IMG/VR virus record: IMGVR_UViG_3300023202_000273
Coordinates: 1-55,443 of that record
Reading direction: 5' to 3' (one strand)
Length of the DNA stretch: 55,443 bases
Source of the DNA: a virus
Taxonomy: Duplodnaviria > Caudoviricetes
Made by a program: the position numbers and the translations under genes. Below, piece after piece: positions 1,151-28,200 of the stretch. Numbering within the stretch: the first letter of the stretch is position 1; each line of letters begins with the position of its first letter. The notes beneath the pieces were generated by a model. It saw only the letters and a list, made by a program, of their open reading frames with translations, searched no databases and had not been told where the DNA came from.

Positions 1151-1296
1151 TTTTTGGCAATCCCCTGACGCAGGAAAATCATTCCCAGCCCACCGAGGAT
1201 TGTCTGCATACCTGCTTCAGTGTCGCCGCCGACAATAAGTGTGACGCCGAACCCGACCGCTCCGAGACCGGTCCAGAATGTTTTTGATTTCCACAT
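1147..1296 (-). CDS. Small membrane protein, holin candidate (49 aa, not in the ORF track)
   Basis: MWKSKTFWTGLGAVGFGVTLIVGGDTEAGMQTILGGLGMIFLRQGIAKK. AAGGAG RBS, ATGA overlap with GT11, two hydrophobic segments and a basic tail. Confidence 0.65.
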   Translation of the reverse strand: MWKSKTFWTGLGAVGFGVTLIVGGDTEAGMQTILGGLGMIFLRQGIAKK

Positions 1297-1376
1297 TTTT
1301 TACTCCTTTGGTGAAAGTTAAACTTGTGCCGTTATGTTAATATATTACATTTTAATGTTATGCATTCGCTCGATAA

Positions 1377-1403
1377 CATAAATTCGGAATTTCCGAATTT
1401 ATG
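1377..1403. repeat. Perfect 13-bp inverted repeat
   Basis: CATAAATTCGGAA-T-TTCCGAATTTATG. Confidence 0.9.
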
Positions 1404-1454
1404 GCAACGATTGACACTATCCGAAGTTTTAATTTTTGATAGTGTCTGTTGTAC
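1402..1454 (-). other. attC-like site E
   Basis: Minus strand: GTACAAC-A-GACACTATC...GATAGTGTC-AATC-GTTGCCA, with perfect 9-bp arms. Confidence 0.6.
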
Positions 1455-1545
1455 GCTGTAACCGCAAAGCACATAGTAGCGTATGTTTTTCCCAAAGTTC
1501 ATAGGCTTGATTCTCAATTTTATTTTTATTACCTGTAACATACAG

Positions 1546-1935
1546 TCAGAGTTTGTGAAAATTGCGTAATTCTCGCAATGTCTCTTCTAACCTATTGCAT
1601 CTGCCAACGAGAGCGTCGAATTCGTTTGCATCTACCCAATTTTTGTTCTGATAAAACAACATATAATATTTTTTTCGGTATGTACGCTGTGCTAACTCAG
1701 TCCCACTTGTAATTACGGTGTCTTTATGATCGCATTGCGTGCTACCGCTGTTGTTTGTCTGTGGCTTGGCGCTCTCCTTGTATTGGGGCCACCGCACGAC
1801 CCATTGATACCAACCAACCATAATTCGCAAACCATAGCTGTGAGCAATAAAGCCAATCTGGAACCACCGATACCCTACCGACAACGATGCATAGTTTTGC
1901 TCACCACAACAATACTTAGATTTTGTTACTGCCAT
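1546..1935 (-). CDS. Cassette-borne hypothetical protein (MAVTKSKYCC...), probably a fusion across a decayed attC
   Basis: ATG at 1935 after GGGGG. The ORF reads through the attC-like hairpin at 1658-1756. Confidence 0.55.
   Translation of the reverse strand: MAVTKSKYCCGEQNYASLSVGYRWFQIGFIAHSYGLRIMVGWYQWVVRWPQYKESAKPQTNNSGSTQCDHKDTVITSGTELAQRTYRKKYYMLFYQNKNWVDANEFDALVGRCNRLEETLRELRNFHKL
1658..1756 (-). other. Degenerate attC-like site D
   Basis: AAACAAC-A-GCGGTAGCACGCAATGC...GCACAGCGTACATACCG, followed by an A-run where N5-GTT is expected. Confidence 0.55.
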
Positions 1936-1969
1936 TGTGCCCCCTATAATATGACCGCCAAGCCATTGC

Positions 1970-2041
1970 GCATAACGTTTGAGCAATGGTGAAGTACGAT
2001 TAGCATTTGCCGTAGGCCGAAGCACCATTGCTTTGTTGTGT
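1970..2041 (-). other. attC-like site B
   Basis: ACACAAC-AA-AGCAATGGTG...CACCATTGCT-CAAAC-GTTATGC, with perfect 10-bp arms. Confidence 0.7.
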
Positions 2042-2064
2042 GCCGTTGTAAATCGCCTTCCGCA

Positions 2065-2343
2065 TTATTCCTGCGCGGCGATCTTCTGATTTACATTCTG
2101 AGCTCTGACCAAAAACACTCCGTCATACATACCAACGGCTCCGGGAAAATTTCGTAAATCTTCGCTTAGGGCATGACAGGGAACCCAAGCTTTCTCATCA
2201 AACTCAAGTCCGTCTGGATTTGCTATCGCTTTATAGCCTTCACTTGTAAGCAAGAACGTTGGATTCTGCACACCAAAACCACGGAGGACTCTCCCGTAGT
2301 CAGCGATCACTTTCATCATTTTTGTTTCTGTTTTCATTCGCAT
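2065..2343 (-). CDS. Inner-cassette hypothetical protein (MRMKTETK...AAQE)
   Basis: GAGGAG RBS before ATG 2343. Bounded by ATTATAGGCGCGGCGA and TCGCCGCGCAGGAATAAT. Confidence 0.65.
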   Translation of the reverse strand: MRMKTETKMMKVIADYGRVLRGFGVQNPTFLLTSEGYKAIANPDGLEFDEKAWVPCHALSEDLRNFPGAVGMYDGVFLVRAQNVNQKIAAQE

Positions 2344-2558
2344 TTTGTTTTTCTCCTCGCCGCGCCTATAATAAGCTGGGCCTGTTGGCTGTTGCAAGTT
2401 TGCGACTTCCATCCATCCATAATGTTTGCGGGCGTTTCCTCGATCCATCCACAACCGCCACTATCCGGCAAACAAACCCACGGGCCACACCGCTGCATAC
2501 CAACACCATTATCAACAAAATCAGCTTCGCACTTGGTACCACACTTTGGACACTGCAT
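2334..2558 (-). CDS. Inner-cassette zinc-ribbon protein (MQCPKCG...)
   Basis: AAAGGA RBS; CPKC...C-x6-C pattern. Confidence 0.6.
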   Translation of the reverse strand: MQCPKCGTKCEADFVDNGVGMQRCGPWVCLPDSGGCGWIEETPANIMDGWKSQTCNSQQAQLIIGAARRKTKCE

Positions 2559-2613
2559 ATTGTTCCTTTCTTGCGCCCGCCTATAATTTCCAAAAGGCGA
2601 GCAATTTCCACCA

Positions 2614-2743
2614 ACGTAACGGTTTGCAAAATGTATGCTGTGCTCACTGCGGCACCTCCATGCCACAATCTTTGCAGACGTGATACGGCCCATCCGATAG
2701 GTCTTGGTGTCGGTGTAAGCATGGCATACTTTTGCTGTTGTGT
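2614..2743 (-). other. attC-like site A
   Basis: ACACAAC-A-GCAAAAGTATGCCATGC...GCACAGCATACATTTTGC-AAACC-GTT. The arms pair with one extrahelical base. Confidence 0.7.
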
Positions 2744-2943
2744 GCTGTTTGGTTTTGCTCCGCGTTTTCCTGCTCGGCCTCTGCTTCACACTGCGCGGCA
2801 TACGCTTCTTGTTCCGCTTGAGCTTCTGCGTCCATTGCAGCAACATATTTTTCTTCCACCAGTTTAATACCACGAGTAGCACAGAACTCTACCAAGGCAA
2901 GATAATCTTGCCCTTTATCTGAACCGATTACTATAACCTGCAC
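2644..2943 (-). CDS. First-cassette hypothetical protein (acidic helix plus C-terminal CxH/CxxC)
   Basis: GGAGG RBS and GTG at 2943. The C-terminus is encoded inside attC A. Confidence 0.6.
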   Translation of the reverse strand: MQVIVIGSDKGQDYLALVEFCATRGIKLVEEKYVAAMDAEAQAEQEAYAAQCEAEAEQENAEQNQTAHNSKSMPCLHRHQDLSDGPYHVCKDCGMEVPQ

Positions 2944-2972
2944 AAAACCTCCAAAGAGAAAATTATTTACAC

Positions 2973-2990
2973 CAACGTACACATCACGAA
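2973..2990 (-). other. Putative attI-like array entry site, copy 1
   Basis: TTCGTGATGTGTACGTTG, 17/18 identical to 18015-18032. Confidence 0.6.
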
Positions 2991-2991
2991 C

Positions 2992-3369
2992 CTAATATCC
3001 CCACATGACAACCGCATCAGATTGACGATTGTCGAGGTGGACAAACCGGTTGTCCTTGTACCCGATCCCGCGGAACCCGACCTCGATCGCGCACCTGATA
3101 AGGTTGCCCTCATGTTGGGGGTGAGACTGTGGATGCACGCAAACGACGTCAAAGCCGCAGACGTCGCCCCTGCACAGATGCTTGCTGTCCGGTGCACCGC
3201 CAACGGATGTGTTGTGGTCTGGGCATCGTGCTGCACTGGTCACGATCAGAGGCACATCCATGATCAGCCGCACCGTGTACAGCATCTCGACGGCTCTCTC
3301 CGGCGGCATCAGGCCGCACCCGCATTTGCATTCGAGTTCACTGTTTTTGAAATACTCTTTGACTAACAT
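2992..3369 (-). CDS. Peptidase M15 (Zn D-Ala-D-Ala carboxypeptidase-like) endolysin
   Basis: YFKNSELECKCGCG, SAARCPDHN, SKH...FDV and FVHLD motifs. Confidence 0.85.
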   Translation of the reverse strand: MLVKEYFKNSELECKCGCGLMPPERAVEMLYTVRLIMDVPLIVTSAARCPDHNTSVGGAPDSKHLCRGDVCGFDVVCVHPQSHPQHEGNLIRCAIEVGFRGIGYKDNRFVHLDNRQSDAVVMWGY

Positions 3370-7684: not shown

Positions 7685-8014
7685 TTATTCATTTCCCACA
7701 TCATCGAATAGGCACGCCTGCAGGCTATCTGCAGTGGTTTTGCCGTCGCTGACTGGCATGCCGCCGTTCAGCATCGTCGTAAACCGGTGTGACTGGTATT
7801 TGGGCTCGCGAAGCTGCACCTCGTAGCTGACATTACCAGCATCCCGCGCCTGTGGGTCAGGGGGATATACTGTGATTTTTGCGGTCAGCTCTACTTTTTG
7901 GTCCTGCTCGCTGGCGATTCGGTGTGCACGCAAAAAGTCTACCTGCATCCTGGCGTCAAAATGTCCACGCCCGATCTCTGTGTATCGCAGCGGCTGCATA
8001 TCCTCTACACTCAT
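7685..8014 (-). CDS. Hypothetical protein
   Basis: GGAGG RBS; translationally coupled to the upstream gene. Confidence 0.6.
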   Translation of the reverse strand: MSVEDMQPLRYTEIGRGHFDARMQVDFLRAHRIASEQDQKVELTAKITVYPPDPQARDAGNVSYEVQLREPKYQSHRFTTMLNGGMPVSDGKTTADSLQACLFDDVGNE

Positions 8015-8454
8015 CCTGCCTCCTGTTTACGGTAAATTCCAAGCATTTTACGCCGTTTTTCGTATGCGGCGTTGCACTCAGCGTCCTGGTCTGCATCGGC
8101 GTCCTGCTGCTGATCCATAAGGCCGCATAAATCGATGTATTTCTGGATAGCCGCCAGTGAGTACTGGGGCCGATTGTCCTCGATGTGAGATTTGATTTTA
8201 CTCAGCACATTTTCCCGCGTCAGGCCGATACGGGCGAACTGGCTCTCCATCGTCTGGGAGACGACTTTATCCAGCAGTTCGGCGCCAGCGATGCCTTTGC
8301 GCCAGTTACCTTTCTGGCTGTGCAGCTTTATCGCATTTATCGTCGGCGCCTTAAGACCAGACTTTTCTAAGACTTTTCGTATGCCGTAATACGTGTAACG
8401 CCCTGATTCGTACAGAGTTCGGATGATCTGCCACTGATCTGTGGTGTAATGCAT
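8011..8454 (-). CDS. Probable terminase small subunit (N-terminal HTH)
   Basis: W..IRTLYESG...KGNW pattern, LTRENVL segment, position upstream of terL. Confidence 0.6.
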   Translation of the reverse strand: MHYTTDQWQIIRTLYESGRYTYYGIRKVLEKSGLKAPTINAIKLHSQKGNWRKGIAGAELLDKVVSQTMESQFARIGLTRENVLSKIKSHIEDNRPQYSLAAIQKYIDLCGLMDQQQDADADQDAECNAAYEKRRKMLGIYRKQEAG

Positions 8455-8497: not shown

Positions 8498-8776
8498 TCA
8501 CTGTGGCGGACGTGTCATAGGGTCGTACCATCCACACCCGTCGCATACCAGTGTCTCTCCCCGGTCCTGCCCGCAGTTACAGCATATGCCGCGCTCAAAT
8601 GGCTTAATCTTGCACGATACGGCGTTTATGTCCACTTGGTATACGTGTATATCTGGCTTCGGGGCTGCCCCACGGCGCATCATCGGTAGTAACAATCCCC
8701 AGTGTCTATACCCGTACATGCTGGGCACCCACAGTTTGCCCGGCGTTGGCACTCCCGCTCCATTGGAGATTGACAA
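8498..8776 (-). CDS. Hypothetical protein with C-terminal zinc ribbon
   Basis: CCNC...CDGC; co-oriented with neighbours. Confidence 0.45.
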   Translation of the reverse strand: MSISNGAGVPTPGKLWVPSMYGYRHWGLLLPMMRRGAAPKPDIHVYQVDINAVSCKIKPFERGICCNCGQDRGETLVCDGCGWYDPMTRPPQ

Positions 8777-8912: not shown

Positions 8913-9344
8913 TCAATCCCCCCCCGCGCTGGCACGTTGTCGATATAACGCTGACTCACATGCCAATATCATCGTATCGATGCCTGCATGTAGATCGGGA
9001 AGCTCGTCCCGCGCCGGCCCGGTTACCCGGGGAGCCAACTCGTTAACCGCCTCCCGCAGCAGTTTACCAGTTTGCATCAGCGCGGTCAAGCACTGAGATA
9101 CATCTGCCGTGCGATAATAAGACAGAGCGTCGCCCTCAGCGGTCGTGGTGTTGATTTTTGGCATACTGGATCCTCGGCTAATGGTTACATCCAAACATGT
9201 GGTCAACGGATTCCACCGGCGGTACACCTGATCACAACCAGTGCATACCCAGTCGCCATCACGCATCTGGGCAATTGTGTGCCTGATTATTCCGTCAGCG
9301 CCGGTGCATGTCATCTGCACACCCGGCGCTGGCAGTGCGGGCAC
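8913..9344 (-). CDS. Hypothetical protein (start uncertain)
   Basis: ORF within a tightly packed - strand operon. Confidence 0.45.
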   Translation of the reverse strand: MPALPAPGVQMTCTGADGIIRHTIAQMRDGDWVCTGCDQVYRRWNPLTTCLDVTISRGSSMPKINTTTAEGDALSYYRTADVSQCLTALMQTGKLLREAVNELAPRVTGPARDELPDLHAGIDTMILACESALYRQRASAGGD

Positions 9345-14198: not shown

Positions 14199-14577
14199 AT
14201 AAAATAACTATAATCACGAAATGAGCCTATAATGCACGGCTGTGGATGTCACAGGGGGGTTAATCGGAACCAATGGCGTAAATCAAAACGACATGCAGTG
14301 CACCGCCAAAAATGGCCAGTGGGGCAATATCTGGGAGGAAAAACATTAACGCCCCATACCCAGCAGCCATGGCGGCTGCAAAAATGGTCTTGGCTACCAC
14401 TCGAGGCATATACGATCCAGATATACGATCAGCATGACCACAGCCATGGCTATCGATACCACCGGCTCCGGGCAAACTATACATATCAGCAGTGCGATGT
14501 CCAGCTCCATGGCGATAATATAATAGTAACCCAGACCGCCGTCTTAAAAAAAAGTTTAAAAAAGTTTAACTTAGGGG

Positions 14578-17611: not shown

Positions 17612-18006
17612 GGATGCTGATCGATGGCAACGATGGTAAAACCGAAGCACTCGCGGCAATCCGTGCACTCGATGGCAAGTACATTGTCGAAATAAAGCGA
17701 CACCGAAAAACACGGTCCACGGACCAGAATAATCTGTACTGGGGACGACTGAGGTGCCTGTCTGACTACACCGGGTACACAGCCGAAGAGCTACACGATC
17801 TTTTTAGGCACGAGTTTCTCGGCGAGGACCGTAAAATGGTACTCGATAAGCCGCTGTACACGATCAAAAGCACTACCACACTTGATACTAAAGAGTTCAC
17901 GGCATACATTGACAAAATCAAACTCTACTCGGCCGAAGAGATTGGTGTCTATCTACCCGACCCAGGTGAGCCTGACTATGACAATTTTGGTGCTCAGTAC
18001 ATGTGA
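17608..18006 (+). CDS. NinB/DUF1367-like recombination accessory protein
   Basis: KTRSTDQNNLYWG, EELHDLF and STTTLDTKEFTAYIDKI. Confidence 0.75.
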   Translation: MRMLIDGNDGKTEALAAIRALDGKYIVEIKRHRKTRSTDQNNLYWGRLRCLSDYTGYTAEELHDLFRHEFLGEDRKMVLDKPLYTIKSTTTLDTKEFTAYIDKIKLYSAEEIGVYLPDPGEPDYDNFGAQYM

Positions 18007-18014
18007 TAGTTTAT

Positions 18015-18032
18015 TTCGTGATGCGTACGTTG
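18015..18032 (+). other. Putative attI-like array entry site, copy 2
   Basis: TTCGTGATGCGTACGTTG. Confidence 0.6.
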
Positions 18033-18068
18033 TAGTCAATTAACCTAAAACATTGTAGGAGCGCAAAA

Positions 18069-18305
18069 ATGTATAAATGTAATGAATGCGGTGGGTTTCT
18101 TGAGGAGTTGGGTGATATGGCGGTGTCAGACGGTGGGTGCGTTTGCGCTCAGAAAAAAGCTGAGGAATCGGCTAACAGCCTACAACTGCTAAAGACTGAA
18201 ATTGCTCTTACTGTTAGCTCTATCGCAAGGGACACTTCTATTCCAGCGGTTGATCGGCTTGATAAAATTGTGATGTTTGTATACGAGCAACTATCATCCG
18301 TTTAG
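18069..18305 (+). CDS. Cassette-borne small Cys-containing protein
   Basis: AGGAG RBS; CNEC...CVC. The C-terminal half is encoded by the attC-like site. Confidence 0.65.
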   Translation: MYKCNECGGFLEELGDMAVSDGGCVCAQKKAEESANSLQLLKTEIALTVSSIARDTSIPAVDRLDKIVMFVYEQLSSV

Positions 18306-18318
18306 CGGGACGTTAGGT
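18180..18318 (+). other. attC-like site
   Basis: CTACAAC-T-GCTAAA...TTGCTC / GAGCAA...TTTAGC-GGGAC-GTTAGGT. CTACAAC is the exact complement of the cassette start GTTGTAG (18029-18035). Confidence 0.75.
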
Positions 18319-18323
18319 GAAAT

Positions 18324-18914
18324 ATGAAAAACTATGGAATTATAGGCGCGGATAAGACGGCGCGTCCTGTGCCGAAAATGCACAGAGCGTGGGCCATGCC
18401 TAACAGCCTCACGTTCAGTATCAAGCCTATCCGAGAGTTGATTGGCAGCGTCATTGTTGATTGTTTGAATGTTTGCGATCCATTCGTGCGCAATAGTCCG
18501 TTTAAAGCCCGGTGCGTGTCAAATGATTTAGACACAAGTGTTGAGGCGGATTTTCACATGGATGCACTCGATTTTCTCCGGTCGCGTTCCACCGCCGAGT
18601 TTGATGCGTTGCTATTCGACCCCCCGTATTCTCCGCGTCAAGTTTCGGAATGTTATAAGCGCATGGGCTTATCAGTCAACATGGCGACCACACAGGCATC
18701 GTTCTGGTCGAATCTCAAGCGGGAAATTCAGCGGGTCGTTATGCCGGGTGGGGTAGTTATTACGTGCGGCTGGAACAGCGGCGGCATCGGTAAAAAATAC
18801 GGGTTTGCCATAGAGCAGATTTTACTTGTCGCCCACGGAGGCTGGCACAACGATACTATTTGCACCGTCGAAAGGCGGCGCACGTCCTGTGCGCAAGAAT
18901 CCGCGCAGGAATAA
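18324..18914 (+). CDS. Amino (N6-adenine-type) DNA methyltransferase
   Basis: DPF, NDL, DALDFL, FDPPYS and HGGWHNDTICTVE motifs. Confidence 0.85.
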   Translation: MKNYGIIGADKTARPVPKMHRAWAMPNSLTFSIKPIRELIGSVIVDCLNVCDPFVRNSPFKARCVSNDLDTSVEADFHMDALDFLRSRSTAEFDALLFDPPYSPRQVSECYKRMGLSVNMATTQASFWSNLKREIQRVVMPGGVVITCGWNSGGIGKKYGFAIEQILLVAHGGWHNDTICTVERRRTSCAQESAQE

Positions 18915-19096
18915 TATGGAAGGAGGTTTTCTACCCCGGTGCGGGGTGTTATGAACGAAGTCACCCAATCCCTGAAAAAGCGATTTACTTATACAAGGAG
19001 TCACCGGGAAAAGCCTGCAGCGATTGCGATAAATCGTAACCGCGCATGGATTGCAATGCATAAATAACAAATCACCATTTAACAAAAGAGGTTTTT

Positions 19097-19261
19097 ATGG
19101 ATTCTGTTTATATCGTTCAAACCGTAACTGATACCATTCGCGACAGCGCGGCAACCGCTGCGCAAAGCGGTAATGCCGAGTCGGTGTTATGGACCATTGC
19201 TGCGATACTTTCGACGATTACGATGACGATAGCGATTGTTGATTTTGTCAACACTCCCTAA
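19097..19261 (+). CDS. Small single-pass membrane protein (54 aa, not in the ORF track)
   Basis: MDSVYIVQTVTDTIRDSAATAAQSGNAESVLWTIAAILSTITMTIAIVDFVNTP; GAGG RBS. Confidence 0.55.
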   Translation: MDSVYIVQTVTDTIRDSAATAAQSGNAESVLWTIAAILSTITMTIAIVDFVNTP

Positions 19262-19290
19262 GCCTCGGTGTGTGCATACCGTCATGGCGC

Positions 19291-22200
19291 CTATTCTTCG
19301 GATGATCCCAGAATGCGTTTGTTGTACTGCCGGTTAAGGTTATCTGTGAGCTTCTCTATGTTTTCGTCAATGTTTTTGACGGCGTCCATATCGTTGTGCT
19401 CATATGCTGCCCGCCGGCGCTTTTTTTGCTCCCTGATCTTGCTCTCGATTCCAGATACGATCGATCTTCCCTTGCTCGGTTTTCTTGTCATGATCAAAGC
19501 CTGACGATTGCGCTTCCCGAATGCCTCGGCTTTTTTGCGCTCGCCGTTTGCAACGAGATTGTCATACTCAGCCCGGATCCGTTTTAGCTCTACCAGTCTA
19601 TCATACATGAGCGATTGATCATACCAGCTCTCGATCTCTCCATAATACCTGCGGACAATAGGCACATTTCGCGGCGCCGGTGCTTTTTTTGATACGGCGT
19701 TGTTTAGCAGATTTACAGACCGCTCAATGGTTTTCCCGACCCCGCCGGTCATGTATTCATACACGTACTCAACGCCCTCCGGGGATATGTCCAGTAAACC
19801 ATGCCGGTATTCGCTCCCGCCGGTCAGTTCATTGAGAGCCTGCAAAGGCTTGGTGTACACATCAGGTGTCGTCGCCTTGGCCGAATGTGCGCGGGATTTC
19901 TCGGGTCCGAATTTTTGCTCCAGCCATATGTCACGGCCGATAAAGTTTTTGTTGAGACCCAAGTCAACCATGAGGCGACCAGCCGTCGGGGTAACGGTCT
20001 GCAATAGCGTGCTGGCTGATCCGATGGGAGAAAATGTTGCTGCCGCGGTCGTGAGCAGCCCTTTAGTGGCATCTGCCAGTTTCCGGCGGTTGTGCACACC
20101 ATGGTCAATGGCCTGTCCGATCGCCCAAAACAAATTGTACCCGTACGGCAGCGGTATTTTTGCGTAACGACCATTAGTCATCGGGATAATAAAATTGTGG
20201 GCTTTTTCCCATGCCGGTATTTTATCATAATGATTCATCTCATCGTCATCGTCTCCCATCACCATCCTGGACAACTGCGCCATTGCGAGCGACCCAACCA
20301 CGGCGGCTCCTGCAATTGCCTGCACTCGGGGGTTGCGCATGGCCTGCAGCATACGGATGTTGCCCTGTATCGAGGCATTGGAAAACACATAAAGCGCGTT
20401 AACCATCGTTCCAAGCTCGCCCTTTTTATTAAAATTGACAGTAATCCCCTTTGCGATTGCGGCCGACTTCGCCTTCGAGACACCCATCTCACGCATCGCC
20501 CGGTAAACCGACAAGCGAGACGCGTTCTCAACCGCTGAATTCAACCGGCTGACGTAATCACCGGCGCTCCGATACATGCGTTTAATCGATGTCACATTTC
20601 CGGGCTCCAGCATTTCAACCGATTTGATGAGGCGCTTCTGTATATCGTCGACTTCGTTCAGTCCAAAAAACCCGATCCGGCCGCCAGCCTCGTCGAATTC
20701 CTTGTACCATTTTGCCCACCCTCCGCGCATATCTCCGCCCTGTGCCCTATAGGCGCCCTTGATAGACCCCGGGATACCCCGGATGGTTTTTATGACCGCC
20801 TTAGCAGCCTCAGCATTGTCGAGACCTTCCAGGCCTCCAACATTGGCAATGGCGGTCTGCACGTCCCTGGTTAGATTCGTCAAAACGAACTCAGGATTCA
20901 ACTGCGTGTTTATCGCCGCGATGTACCGGTTCCACTGTGCCGACATCTGCAGGATCTTATTCGCCCGGTCTGCCCCCAGGTTAACCATGGCCCGAGCCAG
21001 AGCCGGATCATTTATCCGGATATGGTGCTCAACCCCGTCACGCTTAACAACCATCACATTATCGTCAATTTTTGTATCGACAACCTCCTCAACCTCACCA
21101 GTAACCGGGTTGAGGCGGCGTGTCATCTGCGGAGTATCAACATCCCACAGATTAACGGTGCGGTATTTGCCGTTCTCTTTTATGCGAGTTTTTACACCCT
21201 GGTTTTGGGTGGCATAGTCCAAAAACGATTGCCCGACCCGGTTTTTCTCAGCCCTGACTATGGCGTCGGATAACTGTGTGATCGAATTCGCAATGATATT
21301 TTCGGCCATCGAGCGCCGTCCCAATGCCCGCTTAGACTCCGGGCCCCGAATGGAAAAACCTCTTCCAATGCCTCCGCCACGAGTGCTGGATACATATTTC
21401 GTGGGGTATATCCCACGCTGGTCAAGATCGCGCTCGGCTTTCTGAGCGTCCCCCTTGTATTTTTTCAGCGCCTTTTCATGCTCTACGACATAATCGTCAT
21501 CCTCATATAGTGATATCCCACGCAGCGGGACATAGTTCTCGTAGTTCTCCCACGCCGCAAGCGTCTCTTCGCTTATGTTGCCTGCATCGGAGAGTATTTT
21601 TCGTGTGCGGCGGTTGATGTCATAAACCATCTCGGCGAGGCGGTCGTACTGTGCCTGTTTACCAGACTCACGGACCTGCTGCAAAATATTTTCGGCGTCC
21701 GCGTCACTCATGCCTGACCCGCTGGACATATCAGGATTTATCTCTGCGATCGCCTCGTTGCGTTCCTGTGCATGCCGAGCATACAGGTACGTCTCTAAAT
21801 CATGCATCGGTATCCCGTAGCTGTGTATGCGCTTAACCAATGGGTCAACAATGGTCCGATTGATGTCGTCCACCTGCGAGGCGACTTTACCATGCATGAT
21901 AGTCTGCTGCAACATCGCGTCCTGGGCTTCATTGGCCGGCGGGATGTATTTCTGGATCTCCTCGAGTCGGGAAAATTTTTCAACAACCTTGCGGGTAAGA
22001 TACCCCTTGTACGTCTCCATGGGCACCCACCTGACCGGAGCAGTGCGCTCCTCGGTCATGGTTTTGCGCTGGAACATCGGCTGTCCGTCCATGTCGCGCA
22101 TCCGGTCATTAACTACAACCGTAAACTGTGGGCCATTCCCAAGGTCGATTGTCGTGGTCTCAGCGCCAAACTGTTTTTTAACGTACTTCTTTGTCCACGT

Positions 22201-25200
22201 CGGAAGCTTTTTGTCATACAGATTAACAGCCCACTCCGGAGGTGGAGAATCCTTGATCTCTTCCTCCGTCAAATTCTTGTTGTCTTTGGCCAGCAGTTTC
22301 TCTGTCAAATCCTTGCCAATGTATTTCGGCAGCTCTGACTCAGGCACTGTCACATTGATCGGAGTATCCTGTCCGACTCTTATTGCAGTCAGTTCGTTGG
22401 TCTCCGGGTTGTACTTAATCCCCGTAATGTCAAGACCATACATGTCCTGAACTGTTTTTGAATTCGGGAATGACACGTACTCTTTGTCAGCCCCGTCGGC
22501 CAATGCACGCTTTACACCTAACTCCATCCAGTTGTTTGCAAAGGGGAAGTCTTCGACCACTTTGTCTTTTAAGCGCATGTCATCCCGCGTAGCCATTTCT
22601 GACCGGGCATAGAGATCTGCATCAATCTCAAACTCCTCGCGATTCATCTTTTTATGCCAGTCATCCCCGTACTTGTCGCGCATCTTGTCGCGGTAATCTT
22701 TGAGATCCTCCTCAGCCTTCTCGATCTTTCTCAGAGACTCAGCCTTCTTTTTATCGAACAACTTATGCTCCCGCAGCTCTTTCGCCCAGTCGCTCTGTAC
22801 CTCCTCGACATTGAGCACATTGCTGACGATGGCTTTGCCATCAAACCCTCGGGCGCGAGCATAATGTTCAGCCTCAGCCTCAGTGACGGCACCCTTCCTG
22901 ACAGCCACATCAGGGCCGCCAGATCCAACAGAGGCAGAGGATTTCGCTCCAACAGCTTTGGCTATCCGGGAGGCAATATCAACAATATTTGGGTAATGTT
23001 TTCTCTCAGTGGTCCTAATGTGGACAATGACATCTCCCTCTACCCAGTGGATTTCGGGTGGCGTGTAGCTGTATGGCCCCTCTGCGGTCAATAATGTCTC
23101 GCTGTAGTTCTCATACTTTCCAGGGGCGACATAGTCCTCGTGCAGTGCAGCGTAATCGCGGTCTTCGTCAATGTTCGCCCACTCTAAAGCGTCCTCAAGA
23201 GTGCCCTGAAAATCAGTCATTGTTTGATAATCGTCATCATCGATCATGTGCTCGGAAGTTATGGCCAAAGTATTATCATTAACATAATCAACCTCAAAGC
23301 CCTGATCATCCGCCCACGCCTCTAAAAGCCTAATCCCGGACCGCTTGTCAACCGTCCCTATGCGTAGGTTTTTCTTATTTTCGTGCAACTGGTTGAGCAA
23401 AGATGTTTTTGTCGTATCAGGGTTTTTTTCAAGATACTCAGATAGGCCAAGCGCGTCTATCTCAGATTGCTTAAGTCTCCCTTTTTTTATCATGCCCTTT
23501 ACAACATCGGCCACGCCTTTTTCCTGTGGGATGGCCTCGATTGCGGCGATGAGATCGGATTTCCATTTGCGCAGGTTGCGTAAGTACGTCGGCTGCGATA
23601 TATCAACGGGCGTTTTGACGGTGCTGAATTCAGAGTTCAGATCAGACAGGCTGCCCGTGAATTTTTCCAGGTTCTCCTTGCTGTCAGACGCGGCGTACCC
23701 CTTGAAGTTTCCGGAATCCCAGTACTGCGCCACATGGCCGAAATTGTCACGCAGCATATTCTCGAACTGTTCCGCCGATACCTGGTTTTTGTGCATCCCG
23801 ACCAAGACTTCTTCGGATTTTTCCGCCAGCTCTTTTTCGTCATAGTACTGGTCTTTAAACAAGTCCTTCTTGGCCTCGTTCTCAGCCCACTGGGCATCGT
23901 CATCGCTTTCCCGATAAAATTTCTCTTCGAATAGTGCCACACCGTCAGGTTTTAACACCTCTTTCACCTGCCCGATGTGCGTACCGCGATCATTAGAGAT
24001 GAACTGGAATGTCATCCCCTCGTGAGCGTAGTCAAATTTTTCTCCCGGGGAAAACGGCTCAACGACTGTGCCGTCTGGATCTGTCCATCCCTCTCCGAAT
24101 GGAGCATTGACAAACGTCGCCCCAGGAGCCTGTGGCTGATCCATGAATGTCTGCTCCATGGAATTGTTGGGGTCAACCGAAACCGTCTGGATTTTACCGT
24201 CTGATGCCGACGATATCGCTTTGCCCCACGATCCCTCAGATGCGCCTATGTCAACAACTCTGCCTGAGCCGAGGGATTTGACAATGGCATCTGCAACAGC
24301 CGGCTGGACCTCAAAGTATCCCGGGATGGATGTAGCGATGTGGCGATCGAAGTTTCCGATGTACTTTTTGCGGGTGTCCTGCAACGCTTTGGCAGGCTGA
24401 CCGAGATTAATGACAGGAGAGTACCCCCTCCAATTGGGGGTCCCCCTCCTGCCCTCAGTAACAGATGCGAAAAATTTATTAGATTTTAGAAATGTATCGC
24501 GCTTATCAGGTCCATCTTTTCTTTGGTCATCGGACCGCTCATAATCCGCTCGTACTCGGCCTCGGCCTTCAAGACCCTCTGCTTCAGCGGCGAATCCGGC
24601 CCGTTCTTGACCTTCTCGTACGCCTCCTTCGACGACGGGAACGGCTCTTTTTCTTGAGTAGGCTGGCCCTCCCCAGCGGTCTCGGTAGCTTTCGACGACT
24701 GCGGATATCTTCGGACTGAGAATCCCGTCAAGCCTTCTTTGTAGATCGGGGAATCCGGCGGCTCGTGCCTCACTGATATAATCCTGCCCATGTGGCCTTC
24801 CTTTCCAGTTTTCGTGCTCCGGCATGTCTCCCTCAGAGAAAAACCTCCCGATAGAGATATCGCCGGACACCGTATTTGAGATTATTTCTTCTGCCCCTTT
24901 GTACCAAGGGGTTTGGTTGTCCCCCTCGAATCGTACAATCCTGACCCCTCCCGGCGTCGGAATAACGCCGATCTTCTCCTCTGGCTTTCTGACTGCCCGC
25001 TCAAGAGCCTCCATCTCGGCGGGGGTAACGTCGCGGCCTAATTTAACCCATATCCCGTTTGCCGCTCTCTTGGATCGCCCAGGTAGCGGCATGTGCCACC
25101 CTACACCATCCTGGCGCAGGAAATATCCGTACATCGATGCTGCAGCGTTGAGCTGGTTTTTCGTGCCCTTGTCAACGCCTTGGTTAAACATCATCGGCGC

Positions 25201-28200
25201 AATAACCTGCGACGATGGATTTGATTTGTACTGCCATGATCCAGGCAGTACATACTCACCAACCTCTGGCAGCCCAACCGCTTTTAGTATTTCGCTCTGG
25301 CCATTCTCATCGTTGATCGCCTGCATGATAGCGTGATGAAACTGCAGCCGCTCATCATATGGCGCATCATGTATCCCCGGCAGCAAATCAACCTGCGAAC
25401 TCGGTGTTGCCTCCCACGACAATTGCCCAGACTGGGTGGTGATAAAATCCTTAAATGACCCACCGGCATCAACTCTGTCGCCAGATCTCTTTATAACATT
25501 GAACATCTGGCTCTGAAACCACCGGTTTGATTCCGGCGACATCTCCAGATTGCCCTTTTTATTGCGAACATACTCTATCTTGCCCTGCTTTTTTCCTCGC
25601 GATACGATGGCGGGCGCCTTCGCTTCCCATTTTGTCTTAGCGGCGGTCCATACCGCTGCTTGGACCTGCTGGATCTCAACGCCTTTTTCGTCGGCCAGAT
25701 CCCTGACCATTTCCTCCATTAATGTATACTGGGCATCTGTGGGAGTGTCTTTCAAATACCCAAAAGCCCGAGTCATCCACACATCAATCGTTGCACCCTG
25801 GTCTATGGCCGGGTCGACCTCAACCAATAGGTTATTCCGAAAATTTCGGACCTTGCGACCCTTCAGCAATTCGTTGCTGGTGATATCTCCAGACATGTAT
25901 GCAATCAAAGGCGGCTCGTTTTTGTTGGGGTAACGACCGAGTTTCAGATCCACATCGGTATCACCCCTCGCATCAGCAGACTGCCACCGCCGGAATGCCT
26001 CCATCGCCTGGGATGCATTTTCAGCAACGCCGTTTTGTGGAGACAGGTACGCCAGTACCGACGCGAGCCGCTCCGCATACTCCTCATCCCCGCCAGAAAT
26101 ATCTTTGATCACCTGAGAGCTTTCCTCGTACCACCCCTTCGCTGGCTCTCCCTCATTATATAATTTCCGGATATGACCCCGGAGTTTTTTCATGTCCTCA
26201 ATTTTGGCCACGCTCGGCGGTGCCACTGTGACCTTTCCGGCCTTTGTAACGTGCGGCTGTACCTTCCCGCGGACCCTACGCATATGTTGCGGGGCTTCTC
26301 CACCATCGCTCAGGTCTTGGCGCTGCGCACCTTCTTGATCGCCTTCTGGTACGACTCGTTCCGAGCGACTCTGAGCGCGACCTTCAGCGCGTGGCTTTGA
26401 CTTACCTTCCGGGGCTTTTCGTACTTCATCTGCATACCGCTCTCCTCTGATAAATGTCTGCTGTCGGCCAGAATCTTTGGCTTTGTATAGCTGTTTGTCG
26501 GCTTCCTCAATGTTTTCCCCAATTCCCGCTGAAAACGTAATGCCGGTCAGCCCATCGCCAAAGTCAACTTCTTTCAATGCCTCCCGGGCAACCTCAATCT
26601 TTGGCGCAAGGCTCTCAGCCGTAACACCTTCATTTGGGATAATCGCAAACTCCTCGCCGCCCAGCCTGACAACACTCGCATCATTGCCAAACGTGTTGGA
26701 GAGAATACCACCGAAGGCTTTAAGTACATCGTCGCCTTTCCCGTGCCCGTAGGTATCATTGACACCCTTAAAGTGGTCGATGTCAAATATCGCAGTCGGA
26801 CGATCGATTCCCCCATCCTCATTGGCGATGCCCTCATCCTTCAAATACTCGCGGTTGTTCAAACCAGTGAGACGGTCCTTATGGGCCTTATCCCTCCACG
26901 CAGACACCGTCTTCTCTATGGCATCAACCGACTCGTCAGATGCAGACCTAAGACCATCCTCGATGGCCTTTGCGTCACGGCCTGTAACCTTGGACATCTC
27001 CTTTGCCAGATCAGCTCTTTTATTAATATAATCAATGTTAGACGGTTTGTCAACCCCTTTGTCTGACCCTTCGCTCTTTGCTCTCTCTTCAATGTCAGCA
27101 TACTGCTGGTATTTAATCTCTCTTTTGCGCAGTATCTCCTGTTTATCATCGCCGACGTCAAGCTCTATGTTGGTGTCGAGATCGGGCAGGCGCAACGATA
27201 TCCCTGGCCGCTTATCTTTGTCTCCAATTTTCAGGCCCGGGCGCTGCCGCTCTGACGGAACGCCCTCGGGGATAGCTTCCTTAGCAACGGCTTTTAGTGT
27301 GGCAATGTCTTTCTCATCGCCGAGATACTCAGTATCCGCAAGCTCTGGCTGTTCAACATCATCCGGCTTCTTCTTACGCATATGGTCGGCGGATCCTGTC
27401 TGATCGATGTCAGCCGGTTTCTTATCACGCAGGCTTTTTATCAATCCACGCATTACGTTGCGTGTTCTCGCCTGCTTGTCGCCCATTATCCCTTTGATCC
27501 AGTCGTGTATCTGGCTCCCAAGCCGCGCCAAATCACCCTTGCCGGACTCGTCCGTCAAAAACTCTGCCCCGGCGTCAGCGACGAACTCTTTGAATATCAC
27601 GCGGTCCTTCGCGTCCTCAACCGCCTTCTCTACGCCCTCTGTATTCTCGTTCCCCTCGTTACGGGATCGGACAAGTTCTTCCATCAACTTTATGTCCTCT
27701 TTGTACTCCTGGACCTTTTCCTTGTACTCGTCGGTCTTCTTGTACTCGTCGTAGGCCTCTTGGGCATTCCTGTACACTTCTTCACCAGACTCATAGGCTG
27801 CGTAGTGTGTAAACTCATGTGCGAGTACTTCGCCCACATTGTGGGGGGCAACCGATGGTGAAATAACGATCTCGTGCGCATCCTCTCCTTGCAAAAACAC
27901 ACCCGCGCCCGGTAGCTGTTGGCGCCTACCTTCATGCACAAAACTATCTGCAACCTTTATCTTTAACGGAGTCGCATCCTTGCCCATTTTTTTCTTGACA
28001 TCATCGGCGAAATTCTGCGCCTCATGAAATACCTCTATTTCGCGCCGGCGCATAACCTCGGCCCCGGTCTTTGACCCCAATCCCTTAACAGCTTCACCTT
28101 TCCTCTTTATCGTCTCAATGTCGGCCTCATCTTCAGGGTCGTACTCAACATCAACCTGCCCCTCCCCAGTCTGCTCAATCATTGTACGAACCGATCCGGG

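What the first reader, a model, noticed from the sequence alone, without database searches (positions are those of the whole stretch)
2064..2587. Nested second class of cassette with covarying ends (ATTATAG-stem ... stem'-N4-ATWAT)
Seen: inside the GTT/AAC cassettes, single genes are bracketed by a different pair of ends whose stems covary. (1) ATTATAG-GCGGGCG (2587->2574) pairs with CGCCCGC-AAAC-ATTAT (2434->2419). (2) ATTATAG-GCGCGGCGA (2372->2357) pairs with TCGCCGCGC-AGGA-ATAAT (2081->2064). (3) ATTATAG-GCGCGGAT (18339-18353) pairs with ATCCGCGC-AGGA-ATAAT (18899-18915). (4) A weaker case is ATTATAGGGGGCAC (1950->1937) with GTGGCCCC-AATAC (1792->1780). Units 1 and 2 are tandem and separated by an imperfect hairpin (2371-2423) that pairs better on the non-coding strand, as attC does. 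Inference: this is a second recombination-site family with an ATT/AAT core instead of GTT/AAC, giving cassettes within cassettes. I do not recognise it as a described site.
Basis: partly seen in the sequence, partly recalled or inferred. Interest (0 to 1): 0.92.

Follow-up and report, generated by a model that had tools for sequence, protein, structure and literature searches.

The report
Paired ends of phage gene cassettes
The matching stems are real, but they are the inner part of one long pairing that joins the two ends of small add-on gene cassettes shared by several uncultured phages, and not a second kind of cassette nested inside the first.

Summary
The window is a complete 55-kb phage record. 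Each follows the seven-base motif and is followed by four bases plus the five-base tail. The fourth pair is imperfect.

In other uncultured phages (loci L074, L080, L096) the same layout recurs around unrelated genes. A 20-23 base outer inverted repeat starts with GTT and ends with AAC. All 13 outer repeats examined have this inner helix at a fixed distance. The two ends of a cassette match each other and not the ends of other cassettes (outer 85% against 41%; inner 15 of 15 perfect). One homologue keeps its stem through two flipped base pairs.

So the covariation is real, but the stems belong to the same GTT/AAC cassette and are not a nested class. No recombinase was found. The array resembles the attC clusters lacking an integrase that have been reported in phages.

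The function is unsettled. I favour a basal extension of an attC-like cassette hairpin (0.42) over an mRNA closing or processing helix (0.30).

The parts
2574..2587 (-). Unit 1, 5' end: seven-base motif (2587->2581) and 7-base inner arm (2580->2574), 15 bases upstream of the start codon at 2558
2419..2434 (-). Unit 1, 3' end: arm (2434->2428), four bases, five-base tail. It lies inside the open frame of the zinc-ribbon gene, at the end of the part conserved among homologues.
2357..2372 (-). Unit 2, 5' end: motif (2372->2366) and 9-base arm (2365->2357), directly followed by a ribosome-binding site and the start codon at 2343
2064..2081 (-). Unit 2, 3' end: arm (2081->2073), four bases, tail. 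The stop codon 2067->2065 lies in the tail. Homologues read on past this point.
18339..18353 (+). Unit 3, 5' end: motif and 8-base arm, upstream of the probable true start (18378) of a DNA methyltransferase gene
18899..18915 (+). Unit 3, 3' end: arm, four bases, tail, with the stop codon at 18912-18914. Contigs of run X2 diverge from the window at 18899 and rejoin at 18916.
1937..1965 (-). Unit 4, 5' end: 10-base outer arm (1965->1956), loop ending in the motif (1950->1944), imperfect inner arm (1943->1937)
1762..1792 (-). Unit 4, 3' end: imperfect inner arm (1792->1785) and 10-base outer arm (1771->1762). Both lie inside the 129-codon open frame.
1972..2039 (-). Linking hairpin between units 2 and 4: a 10-bp inner stem (2032->2023 with 1991->1982) flanked by AAC-type and GTT-type boxes. 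The same element occurs in L074, L080 (twice), L081 and L090.
18029..18186 (+). A further cassette end pair showing the full layout: outer repeat 18029-18045 with 18170-18186, inner 9-bp helix 18059-18067 with 18142-18150, around the start of a 78-codon zinc-ribbon gene
14226..14233 (-). Fifth copy of the eight-base motif, without a partner. It lies in the divergent control region, where its other strand reads as a perfect -10 hexamer facing the plus-strand genes.

Best explanation
The stems are the innermost helix, and the seven-base motif with the four-base-plus-tail segment is the conserved internal loop, of a composite inverted repeat of about 45 bases that ties together the two ends of each small accessory-gene cassette.

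The cassettes sit in arrays. Each starts with GTT and ends with AAC, and most are separated by a hairpin closed by those same boxes. This is the topology of an integron cassette array without an integrase (a CALIN).

In a joined or circular cassette, or in a folded single strand, the two ends and the linking hairpin would form one long hairpin.

What is shown: the layout, its fixed geometry, and the cassette-specific covariation.

What is inferred: that the pairing acts on single-stranded DNA as a basal extension of an attC-like site, holding the cassette ends together for excision or insertion by a recombinase supplied in trans, or by the phage's own general recombination genes. It would unavoidably also close the mRNA next to the ribosome-binding site.
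For: - **Fixed layout.** All 13 outer GTT...AAC repeats examined have a perfect inner helix of 6-10 bp (8 or more in 12) lying 11-13 bases inside the 5' arm (18 in one) and 10-14 bases inside the 3' arm (19 in one). Only 3 of 156 cross-cassette pairs reach 8 bp.
- **Cassette-specific ends.** Own ends are 85% complementary over the outer 20 bases, against 41% for cross pairs; 3 of 132 cross pairs reach the lowest own value. The inner 7 bases are perfect in 15 of 15 cassettes, against 2 of 210 cross pairs. Most helix positions show 3-4 different Watson-Crick pair types.
- **Compensatory change.** The homologue of unit 2 in L074 (58% protein identity) keeps a 9-bp stem through two flipped pairs. 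Unit 4's helix shows a C-G to T-A change.
- **Unrelated cargo.** The same ends surround two different methyltransferases, an ASCH-like gene, a small membrane protein, zinc-ribbon genes and stretches with little or no coding capacity, in records of 34-55% G+C.
- **Property of the context, not the gene.** Only 1 of 54 methyltransferase homologue loci has a comparable repeat. The L075 homologue of unit 2 has none that I could see.
- **Linking hairpins.** All 8 inter-cassette gaps fold as hairpins, and in 5 the AAC box pairs with the next GTT box.
- **Conserved mismatches.** Helix positions 10 and 11 carry conserved mismatches (A.A in 7 of 12 and A.C in 10 of 12). No G.T occurs anywhere in the outer 20 positions (totals 24 A.C against 4 G.T). 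Duplex energy is lower on the strand opposite the genes in 9 of 11 brackets.
- **Precedent.** Phage CALINs, with methyltransferase cassettes and attC sites that IntI1 recombines, are in print (PMC9892861; abstract and section 3.4 read).
Against: - No integron integrase or other site-specific recombinase was found in any of the five records searched. Only G000 and G003 are rated complete, and G003 was not shown to hold cassettes.
- Pairing that continues about 40 bases below the R boxes is not a described attC feature (recalled).
- No attC model could be run here.
- No circle, excision joint or clean presence/absence was seen.
- The strand bias rests largely on one conserved A.C position, and the energy comparison has no composition control.
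- The inner 5' arm always abuts the ribosome-binding site and the 3' arm lies in the last codons. This fits an RNA role at least as well.
- In the window itself the outer arms of units 1-3 are decayed or missing (flank z-scores below 0).
- I picked the outer repeats out of the repeat finder lists: 7 of 25 listed pairs, 4 of 25, and 2 of 8.
Confidence: 0.42

Rival explanations
1. The helix acts in the sense mRNA. The two ends of each cistron pair and close the coding region into a loop. The long outer helix, about two turns, would be cut by host RNase III, as happens at the stalks that flank ribosomal RNA. The inner G+C helix beside the ribosome-binding site would then set translation, or protect the new 5' and 3' ends.
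For: - The inner 5' arm ends 0-8 bases before a purine-rich ribosome-binding site in most cassettes, and in two cases covers or touches the start codon.
- Stop codons fall in or just after the 3' arm.
- The end pairing appears in both the minimum-energy and the centroid folds of units 1 and 2.
- In L074 a 29-base repeat pairs the ribosome-binding site of the unit 4 homologue with a stretch 75 bases downstream, using three G.U pairs on the sense strand.
- The non-coding unit in L080 (8849-8950) has an outer helix with G.U pairs on the sense strand.
- The outer helix of 20-23 bp is the length recalled for RNase III substrates.
Against: - The outer helices carry A.C mismatches and no G.U on the sense strand.
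- Whole-unit folds are no more stable than shuffles (z = +1.6 and -1.1).
- Units with little or no coding capacity carry the same ends.
- Homologues of the same genes outside such arrays lack the pairing.
- No Rfam family matched.
Confidence: 0.3
2. One reading: an independent second family of recombination sites, with crossover in the ATT/AAT bases, that moves single genes inside larger GTT/AAC cassettes.
For: - X2 contigs break at both edges of the 3' motif of unit 3.
- Similarity between unit 2 and L074 starts at the motif while the outer 5' arm is missing in the window.
- Units 2 and 3 share 13 and 15 identical bases at their two ends.
Against: - The inner and outer parts keep a fixed spacing in 13 of 13 cassettes of relatives.
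- The tail is not conserved in L074.
- The arms lie inside coding sequence that evolves with the gene.
- No recombinase was found.
- The breakpoints seen coincide with gene boundaries, where phage mosaics usually break.
Confidence: 0.06
3. The motif is a sigma-70 promoter read on the opposite strand, where it forms a perfect -10 hexamer in all five window copies, and the complementarity is incidental. A sense-strand promoter is the variant.
For: - Read on the opposite strand, the motif forms a perfect -10 hexamer in all five window copies.
- A TTG-type hexamer lies 16 bases upstream at three of the five copies. I read this off; the scan lists only 1923-1950.
- The copy at 14226-14233 faces the plus-strand genes in the divergent control region.
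- A sense-strand promoter-like site (-35, 18-base spacer, -10) precedes unit 2 (2397->2368).
Against: - In L080 the six-base motif is invariant at the six sites listed, but the base that would be the last position of the antisense hexamer varies. Four of the six lack the T there.
- The spacing from the GTT-box TTG to the motif is 20-23 bases in most copies, too long for sigma-70 (my count).
- A promoter does not explain partner arms at a fixed distance.
- No phage RNA polymerase or sigma factor was found. The polymerase search had no positive control.
Confidence: 0.07
4. Chance complementarity between G+C-rich short sequences near a recurrent A+T motif.
For: The simple tests are weak: 7 of 200 shuffles reach 3 hits, p = 0.08 and 0.03, and there is no genome-wide enrichment.
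Against: The fixed geometry, the own-against-cross specificity and the compensatory changes in relatives, and 0 of 99 control sites.
Confidence: 0.02

Closest known systems
Integron gene cassettes and attC sites, in particular clusters of attC lacking an integrase (CALINs) in virulent phages (Qi et al. 2023, PMC9892861; abstract and section 3.4 read)
   Same: - Co-oriented small genes are each followed by an imperfect hairpin closed by an AAC-type and a GTT-type box.
- The first bases of a cassette match its own end.
- No integrase lies nearby.
- Methyltransferases are among the cargo.
   Different: - The pairing continues about 40 bases beyond the boxes into the cassette, through a conserved loop of about 12 bases and a G+C-rich inner helix that reaches the ribosome-binding site and the last codons.
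- The box consensus is only partly met.
- No attC model or recombination assay was run here.
PeSL regulatory cassettes of T4-like phages (Arbiol et al. 2010, PMC2839356, passages read; Comeau et al. 2014, PMC4122927, abstract read)
   Same: - Conserved composite intergenic modules flank small accessory genes in plastic genome regions.
- They are proposed to mediate modular shuffling and mini-circle formation by homologous recombination.
   Different: - PeSLs are a local terminator stem-loop plus a sigma-70 early promoter.
- Here no promoter with workable spacing was found.
- The distinctive feature here is cassette-specific pairing between the two sides of a gene.
Start-associated sequences and extended SAS of Cluster K mycobacteriophages (Pope et al. 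2011, PMC3203893; passages read)
   Same: - A short conserved motif sits a few bases upstream of the start codons of a subset of non-structural genes.
- An inverted repeat with a variable spacer often lies just upstream.
- The function is unknown.
   Different: - The motif there contains the ribosome-binding site itself.
- Its repeats are local, and the authors saw no support for RNA pairing.
- Here the pairs span the gene and covary.
Long-range RNA pairings that close a transcript: RNase III stalks flanking 16S and 23S rRNA, the fbi/tac pairing of hok mRNA, hairpins hiding the start region of T4 lysozyme early transcripts (all recalled, none read here)
   Same: The 5' and 3' flanks of a functional unit pair over hundreds of bases. 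In the hok family the pairing covaries.
   Different: - None of these is known as a repeated, modular feature of many unrelated phage genes.
- No RNA data exist for these phages.

Membership tests
Integron attC site / CALIN | Inverse core and core boxes (ending in AAC, starting with GTT) at the two ends of an imperfect palindrome | tested here: inconclusive
   In one search, positions 1-4 of the cassette ends are the same pairs in 10-12 of 12 cassettes, but positions 5-7 do not follow the purine/pyrimidine rule quoted in PMC9892861. In one search, the boxes pair across the gap in 5 of 8 folds.
Integron attC site / CALIN | Local hairpin of roughly 57-141 bases after each gene, variable in sequence (size range recalled) | tested here: met
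   In one search, 8 of 8 inter-cassette gaps (boxes included, 61-142 bases) fold as hairpins. The stems differ between gaps in L096 and are conserved in five other copies.
Integron attC site / CALIN | Recognised by an attC covariance or HMM model, with extrahelical bases marking the bottom strand | not testable with these tools
   No attC model is on hand. Conserved A.A and A.C mismatches at helix positions 10-11 are only suggestive.
Complete integron | Integron integrase (tyrosine recombinase) next to the array | tested here: not met
   In one search, PF00589 is absent from G000-G003 and the control rings in 14 of 14 genomes. G004 was not searched with PF00589. Searches found no Y1 transposase or serine recombinase in G000-G004.
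PeSL (T4-like phages) | Strong sigma-70 early promoter joined to a terminator stem-loop | tested here: not met
   In one search, only unit 2 has a 9-of-12 promoter-like site. The spacing from the box to the motif is 20-23 bases in most copies. The linking hairpins have no T run.
Known RNA families (Rfam 15) | Match to a curated covariance model | tested here: not met
   In some searches, only chance-level hits (E 0.37-0.92) turned up in window 1200-3100 and L080 7500-10500. A structure split by a gene would be missed.
RNase III processing stalk | Cleavage by RNase III in a helix of about 20 bp formed by the flanks | not testable with these tools
   The helix length fits. No RNA run holds the stretch, and no phage RNase III was found (one hit below threshold, 12.7 bits).

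The most novel reading that the evidence does not exclude
Some uncultured phages carry a cassette system of their own. An unidentified phage or host factor other than a classical integron integrase would recognise it, and cassettes would be exchanged among unrelated phages whose genomes differ widely in G+C content.
Probability: 0.2. Interest if true: 0.9.

Novelty: new variant of a known kind. Interest (0 to 1): 0.68.

Why it matters
If the pairing is part of the recombination structure, it would show how accessory genes such as the methyltransferases found here (a class that PMC9892861 notes can protect phage DNA from host restriction) move between phages that carry no integrase of their own. 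It would also extend what an attC-type site can look like.

If the pairing acts in RNA, it would be a portable device that lets a gene keep its translation and stability wherever it lands. That would be of interest for phage gene regulation and as a natural insulator.

Either way, the ends give a sequence-and-structure signature for finding such cassettes in metagenomes.

Tried and rejected
**An N4-like phage with hairpin promoters.** The 3486-codon gene suggested this, but the PHROG hits are to families of unknown function and no T7-type polymerase domain was found (that search had no positive control).

**Transposon or MITE ends.** No transposase or recombinase was found. Protein-recognised terminal repeats would not need cassette-specific complementarity.

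**A retron or other reverse-transcriptase element.** No reverse transcriptase was found.

**A small conserved peptide encoded across the linking hairpin.** One L080 copy has an early stop.

**A gene inserted between the motif and a pre-existing start site.** The sequence after the 3' arm of unit 2 is shared with L074 and continues into the linking hairpin.

**Relatives among cultured phages.** None were found (near mode, distant mode, gave one unrelated 84-base hit).

**Other searches for relatives.**
- The genome-contig search for unit 2 homologues found nothing.
- Viral contigs holds no other copy of the unit 2 gene.
- Terminase relatives L004 and L005 are too distant to compare non-coding DNA.
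- Five of the eight loci (L087-L089, L091, L092) are an unrelated coding match and were dropped.

**RNA evidence.** No RNA holder was listed. All four runs are DNA contigs of one study, and X1 may be the source of the window.

**A 12-base complement in L078.** It lies around a distant homologue of unit 1 and is not kept in L079. I left it unexplained.

**Tools and material not available.**
- Supplementary tables of PMC9892861, which list the phage CALINs, were not opened. They may show whether similar ends occur there.

Full report
**What the window is.** The window is a whole virus record of 55,443 bases with direct terminal repeats. It encodes a terminase, portal and capsid proteins, replication and recombination genes (an exonuclease, NinB and NinG/Rap homologues), glycosyltransferases, an endolysin and one 3486-codon gene. 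The finding lies in two small-gene regions. One is on the minus strand at about 1700-2650, downstream of the endolysin gene. The other is at the end of the plus-strand block, at about 18000-18950.

**The observation.** The seven-base motif occurs 12 times in the window. Three copies are followed at once by a stem whose perfect complement lies 139-545 bases downstream. In each case the complement is followed by four bases and the five-base tail. The fourth case is imperfect, and a perfect 10-bp pair lies just outside it. A fifth copy of the eight-base form (14226-14233) has no partner.

The gene context differs from 'bracketed single genes':
- The 5' arms lie 13-24 bases upstream of start codons, next to the ribosome-binding site.
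- The 3' arm of unit 1 lies inside the open frame, at the end of the part conserved among six homologues.
- The 3' arms of units 2 and 3 are the last codons, and the stop codon sits in the tail.
- Homologues of the unit 2 protein read on past that stop. The window differs there by one extra base from what the P0002 protein implies (my reading).
- The unit 3 gene is a DNA methyltransferase. Most of its 64 homologues align only from residue 18-21 onward.

**Is it more than chance?** Tests within the window alone are mixed, and I report them as such. The eight-base motif is enriched (5 against 1.26 expected). None of 99 copies of the motif in about 460 kb of other phage DNA has a bracket with the tail. 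A generalised pattern, however, reached the observed 3 hits in 7 of 200 shuffles. Bare complement tests give p of about 0.03-0.08. Complementarity between gene starts and ends is not enriched over the genome.

**Relatives settle it.**
- The unit 2 protein has four homologues, and two JGI contigs could be fetched.
- In L074 (58% identity) the 5' arm follows the same A+T stretch and the 3' arm sits at the same codons. The two arms differ from the window's at two positions each, such that both base pairs are flipped and all nine pairs are kept. MAFFT placed the 22-base length difference otherwise. My gap-penalised alignment gives the arm-to-arm alignment.
- The five-base tail is not kept in L074.
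- The 10-bp helix of unit 4 is kept in L074 with a C-G to T-A change.
- L075, an equally distant homologue in an ordinary operon, shows no such pairing that I could see.

**The wider layout.**
- A hairpin between units 2 and 4 (2039->1972) is conserved almost base for base in L074. Pattern scans also found it in L080 (twice), L081 and L090.
- These records have 31-51% G+C, and different genes flank the hairpin.
- Around these hairpins, the repeat finder lists gene-spanning inverted repeats of 17-44 bases that start with GTT and end with AAC: seven in L096 (the start of the record that holds L090), three in L080 plus one without those end bases (8290-8312 with 8726-8748), one in L074 and one in the window at 18029-18186.
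- I chose these 13 out of the listed pairs. The other listed pairs are mostly A+T-rich or lack these ends.
- Inside every one of the 13 lies a perfect helix of 6-10 bp (8 or more in 12), 11-13 bases beyond the 5' arm (18 in one) and 10-14 bases before the 3' arm (19 in one). Only 3 of 156 cross-cassette comparisons reach 8 bp.
- The six bases before the inner arm equal the window's motif in 4 of the 13 and differ by one base in 4 more. The four bases after the 3' arm differ from the window's by at most one base in 8 of 13.

**Covariation.**
- Over 12 cassettes, the outer 20 positions are 85% complementary between a cassette's own ends and 41% between ends of different cassettes. Most positions show three or four Watson-Crick pair types.
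- The inner seven positions are perfect in 15 of 15 cassettes, window units 1-3 included, against 2 of 210 cross pairs.
- Positions 10 and 11 are conserved mismatches (A.A in 7 of 12, A.C in 10 of 12).
- Over the 13 repeats there are 24 A.C and 4 G.T mismatches on the gene strand. Duplex energies are lower on the opposite strand in 9 of 11 brackets (no composition control).

**Cargo and context.**
- The cargo is unrelated from cassette to cassette: two different methyltransferases, an ASCH-like protein, a 61-residue membrane protein, zinc-ribbon proteins, a 26-codon frame and a stretch of about 100 bases with a tRNA-like T arm.
- The pairing goes with the array and not with the gene family. 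Of the 64 methyltransferase loci, 54 were usable and 10 were dropped for their coordinates. Only 1 of the 54 has a comparable repeat.
- The gaps between cassettes fold as hairpins in 8 of 8 cases. In 5 of these the AAC box of one cassette pairs with the GTT box of the next.

**What it most resembles.**
- The array topology is that of integron cassettes: GTT box, gene, AAC box, hairpin, GTT box. The rule that a cassette's first bases match its own end is what a crossover at the GTT box would leave behind.
- Qi et al. (PMC9892861; abstract and section 3.4 read) report 17 attC clusters without an integrase in phages. They found methyltransferases among the cassettes, and five of six tested sites were recombined by IntI1.
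- No tyrosine recombinase, serine recombinase or Y1 transposase, reverse transcriptase, sigma factor or RNase III was found in the records searched.
- What I did not find described is the continuation of the pairing some 40 bases below the boxes, with a conserved loop and a G+C clamp.
- My literature searches returned PeSL cassettes of T4-like phages, start-associated sequences of Cluster K mycobacteriophages and the phage CALIN paper. None of them, in the parts I read, describes gene-spanning covarying ends.

**How it may work.**
- I favour (0.42) the reading that the two ends and the linking hairpin form one long hairpin in a joined cassette or a folded single strand.
- The main rival (0.30) is a closing or processing helix in the sense mRNA, next to the ribosome-binding site. 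A third reading is an antisense or sense promoter at the motif (0.07).
Its support is limited to contig breakpoints at 18899 and 18916 in run X2 and one homology boundary at the motif. All of these coincide with gene or module boundaries.
- The step from structure to function is inference throughout. There are no RNA data (one search lists no RNA holder), and no joint or circle was seen in the four runs, which come from a single study.

**In the window itself.** The structure is partly decayed. Units 1-3 keep the loop and the inner helix, but their outer arms are weak or missing. Unit 4 and the cassette at 18029-18186 keep both layers.

Noticed in passing
window 1972-2039 (minus strand); also L074 about 735-800, L080 about 7747-7825 and 8975-9047, L081 about 1480-1550, L090 35-110: A hairpin of about 70 bases has a 10-bp inner stem that is nearly invariant across records of 31-52% G+C, a variable loop of about 30 bases and an asymmetric internal loop. 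It has no Rfam match. It is probably the attC-like linker of the cassette arrays.
   Followed up: partly
window 19291-29751 (minus strand): A single 3486-codon gene has PHROG hits only to families of unknown function, plus a methyltransferase-like stretch. It is not an N4-type virion RNA polymerase by these searches.
   Followed up: partly
window 18359-18373 and 18877-18892: A 15-16-base direct repeat lies just inside both arms of unit 3, in different reading frames at the two places. It is unexplained.
   Followed up: no
L080 8849-8950: A cassette-like unit has about 77 bases between its arms and no open frame. It holds a tRNA-like T arm and a long closing helix with G.U pairs on the sense strand. 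ARAGORN finds no tRNA.
   Followed up: partly
window 1370-1410 and 1413-1446: Two adjacent near-perfect palindromes (20 and 16 bases per arm) lie in the A+T-rich gap downstream of unit 4.
   Followed up: no
L005 9977-13045: The terminase homologue is a 1022-codon frame, against 692 codons in the window. It may hold an inserted element such as an intein.
   Followed up: no
window 18919-19300: This is a plastic spot among related phages of runs X2-X4. It shows a 131-base skip (18919 to 19051), a run of substitutions at 19108-19252 and several loose contig ends.
   Followed up: no
L078 2924-2935 and 3111-3122: A perfect 12-base complement surrounds a distant homologue of the unit 1 gene in a high-G+C phage. 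It is not kept in the related L079.
   Followed up: partly
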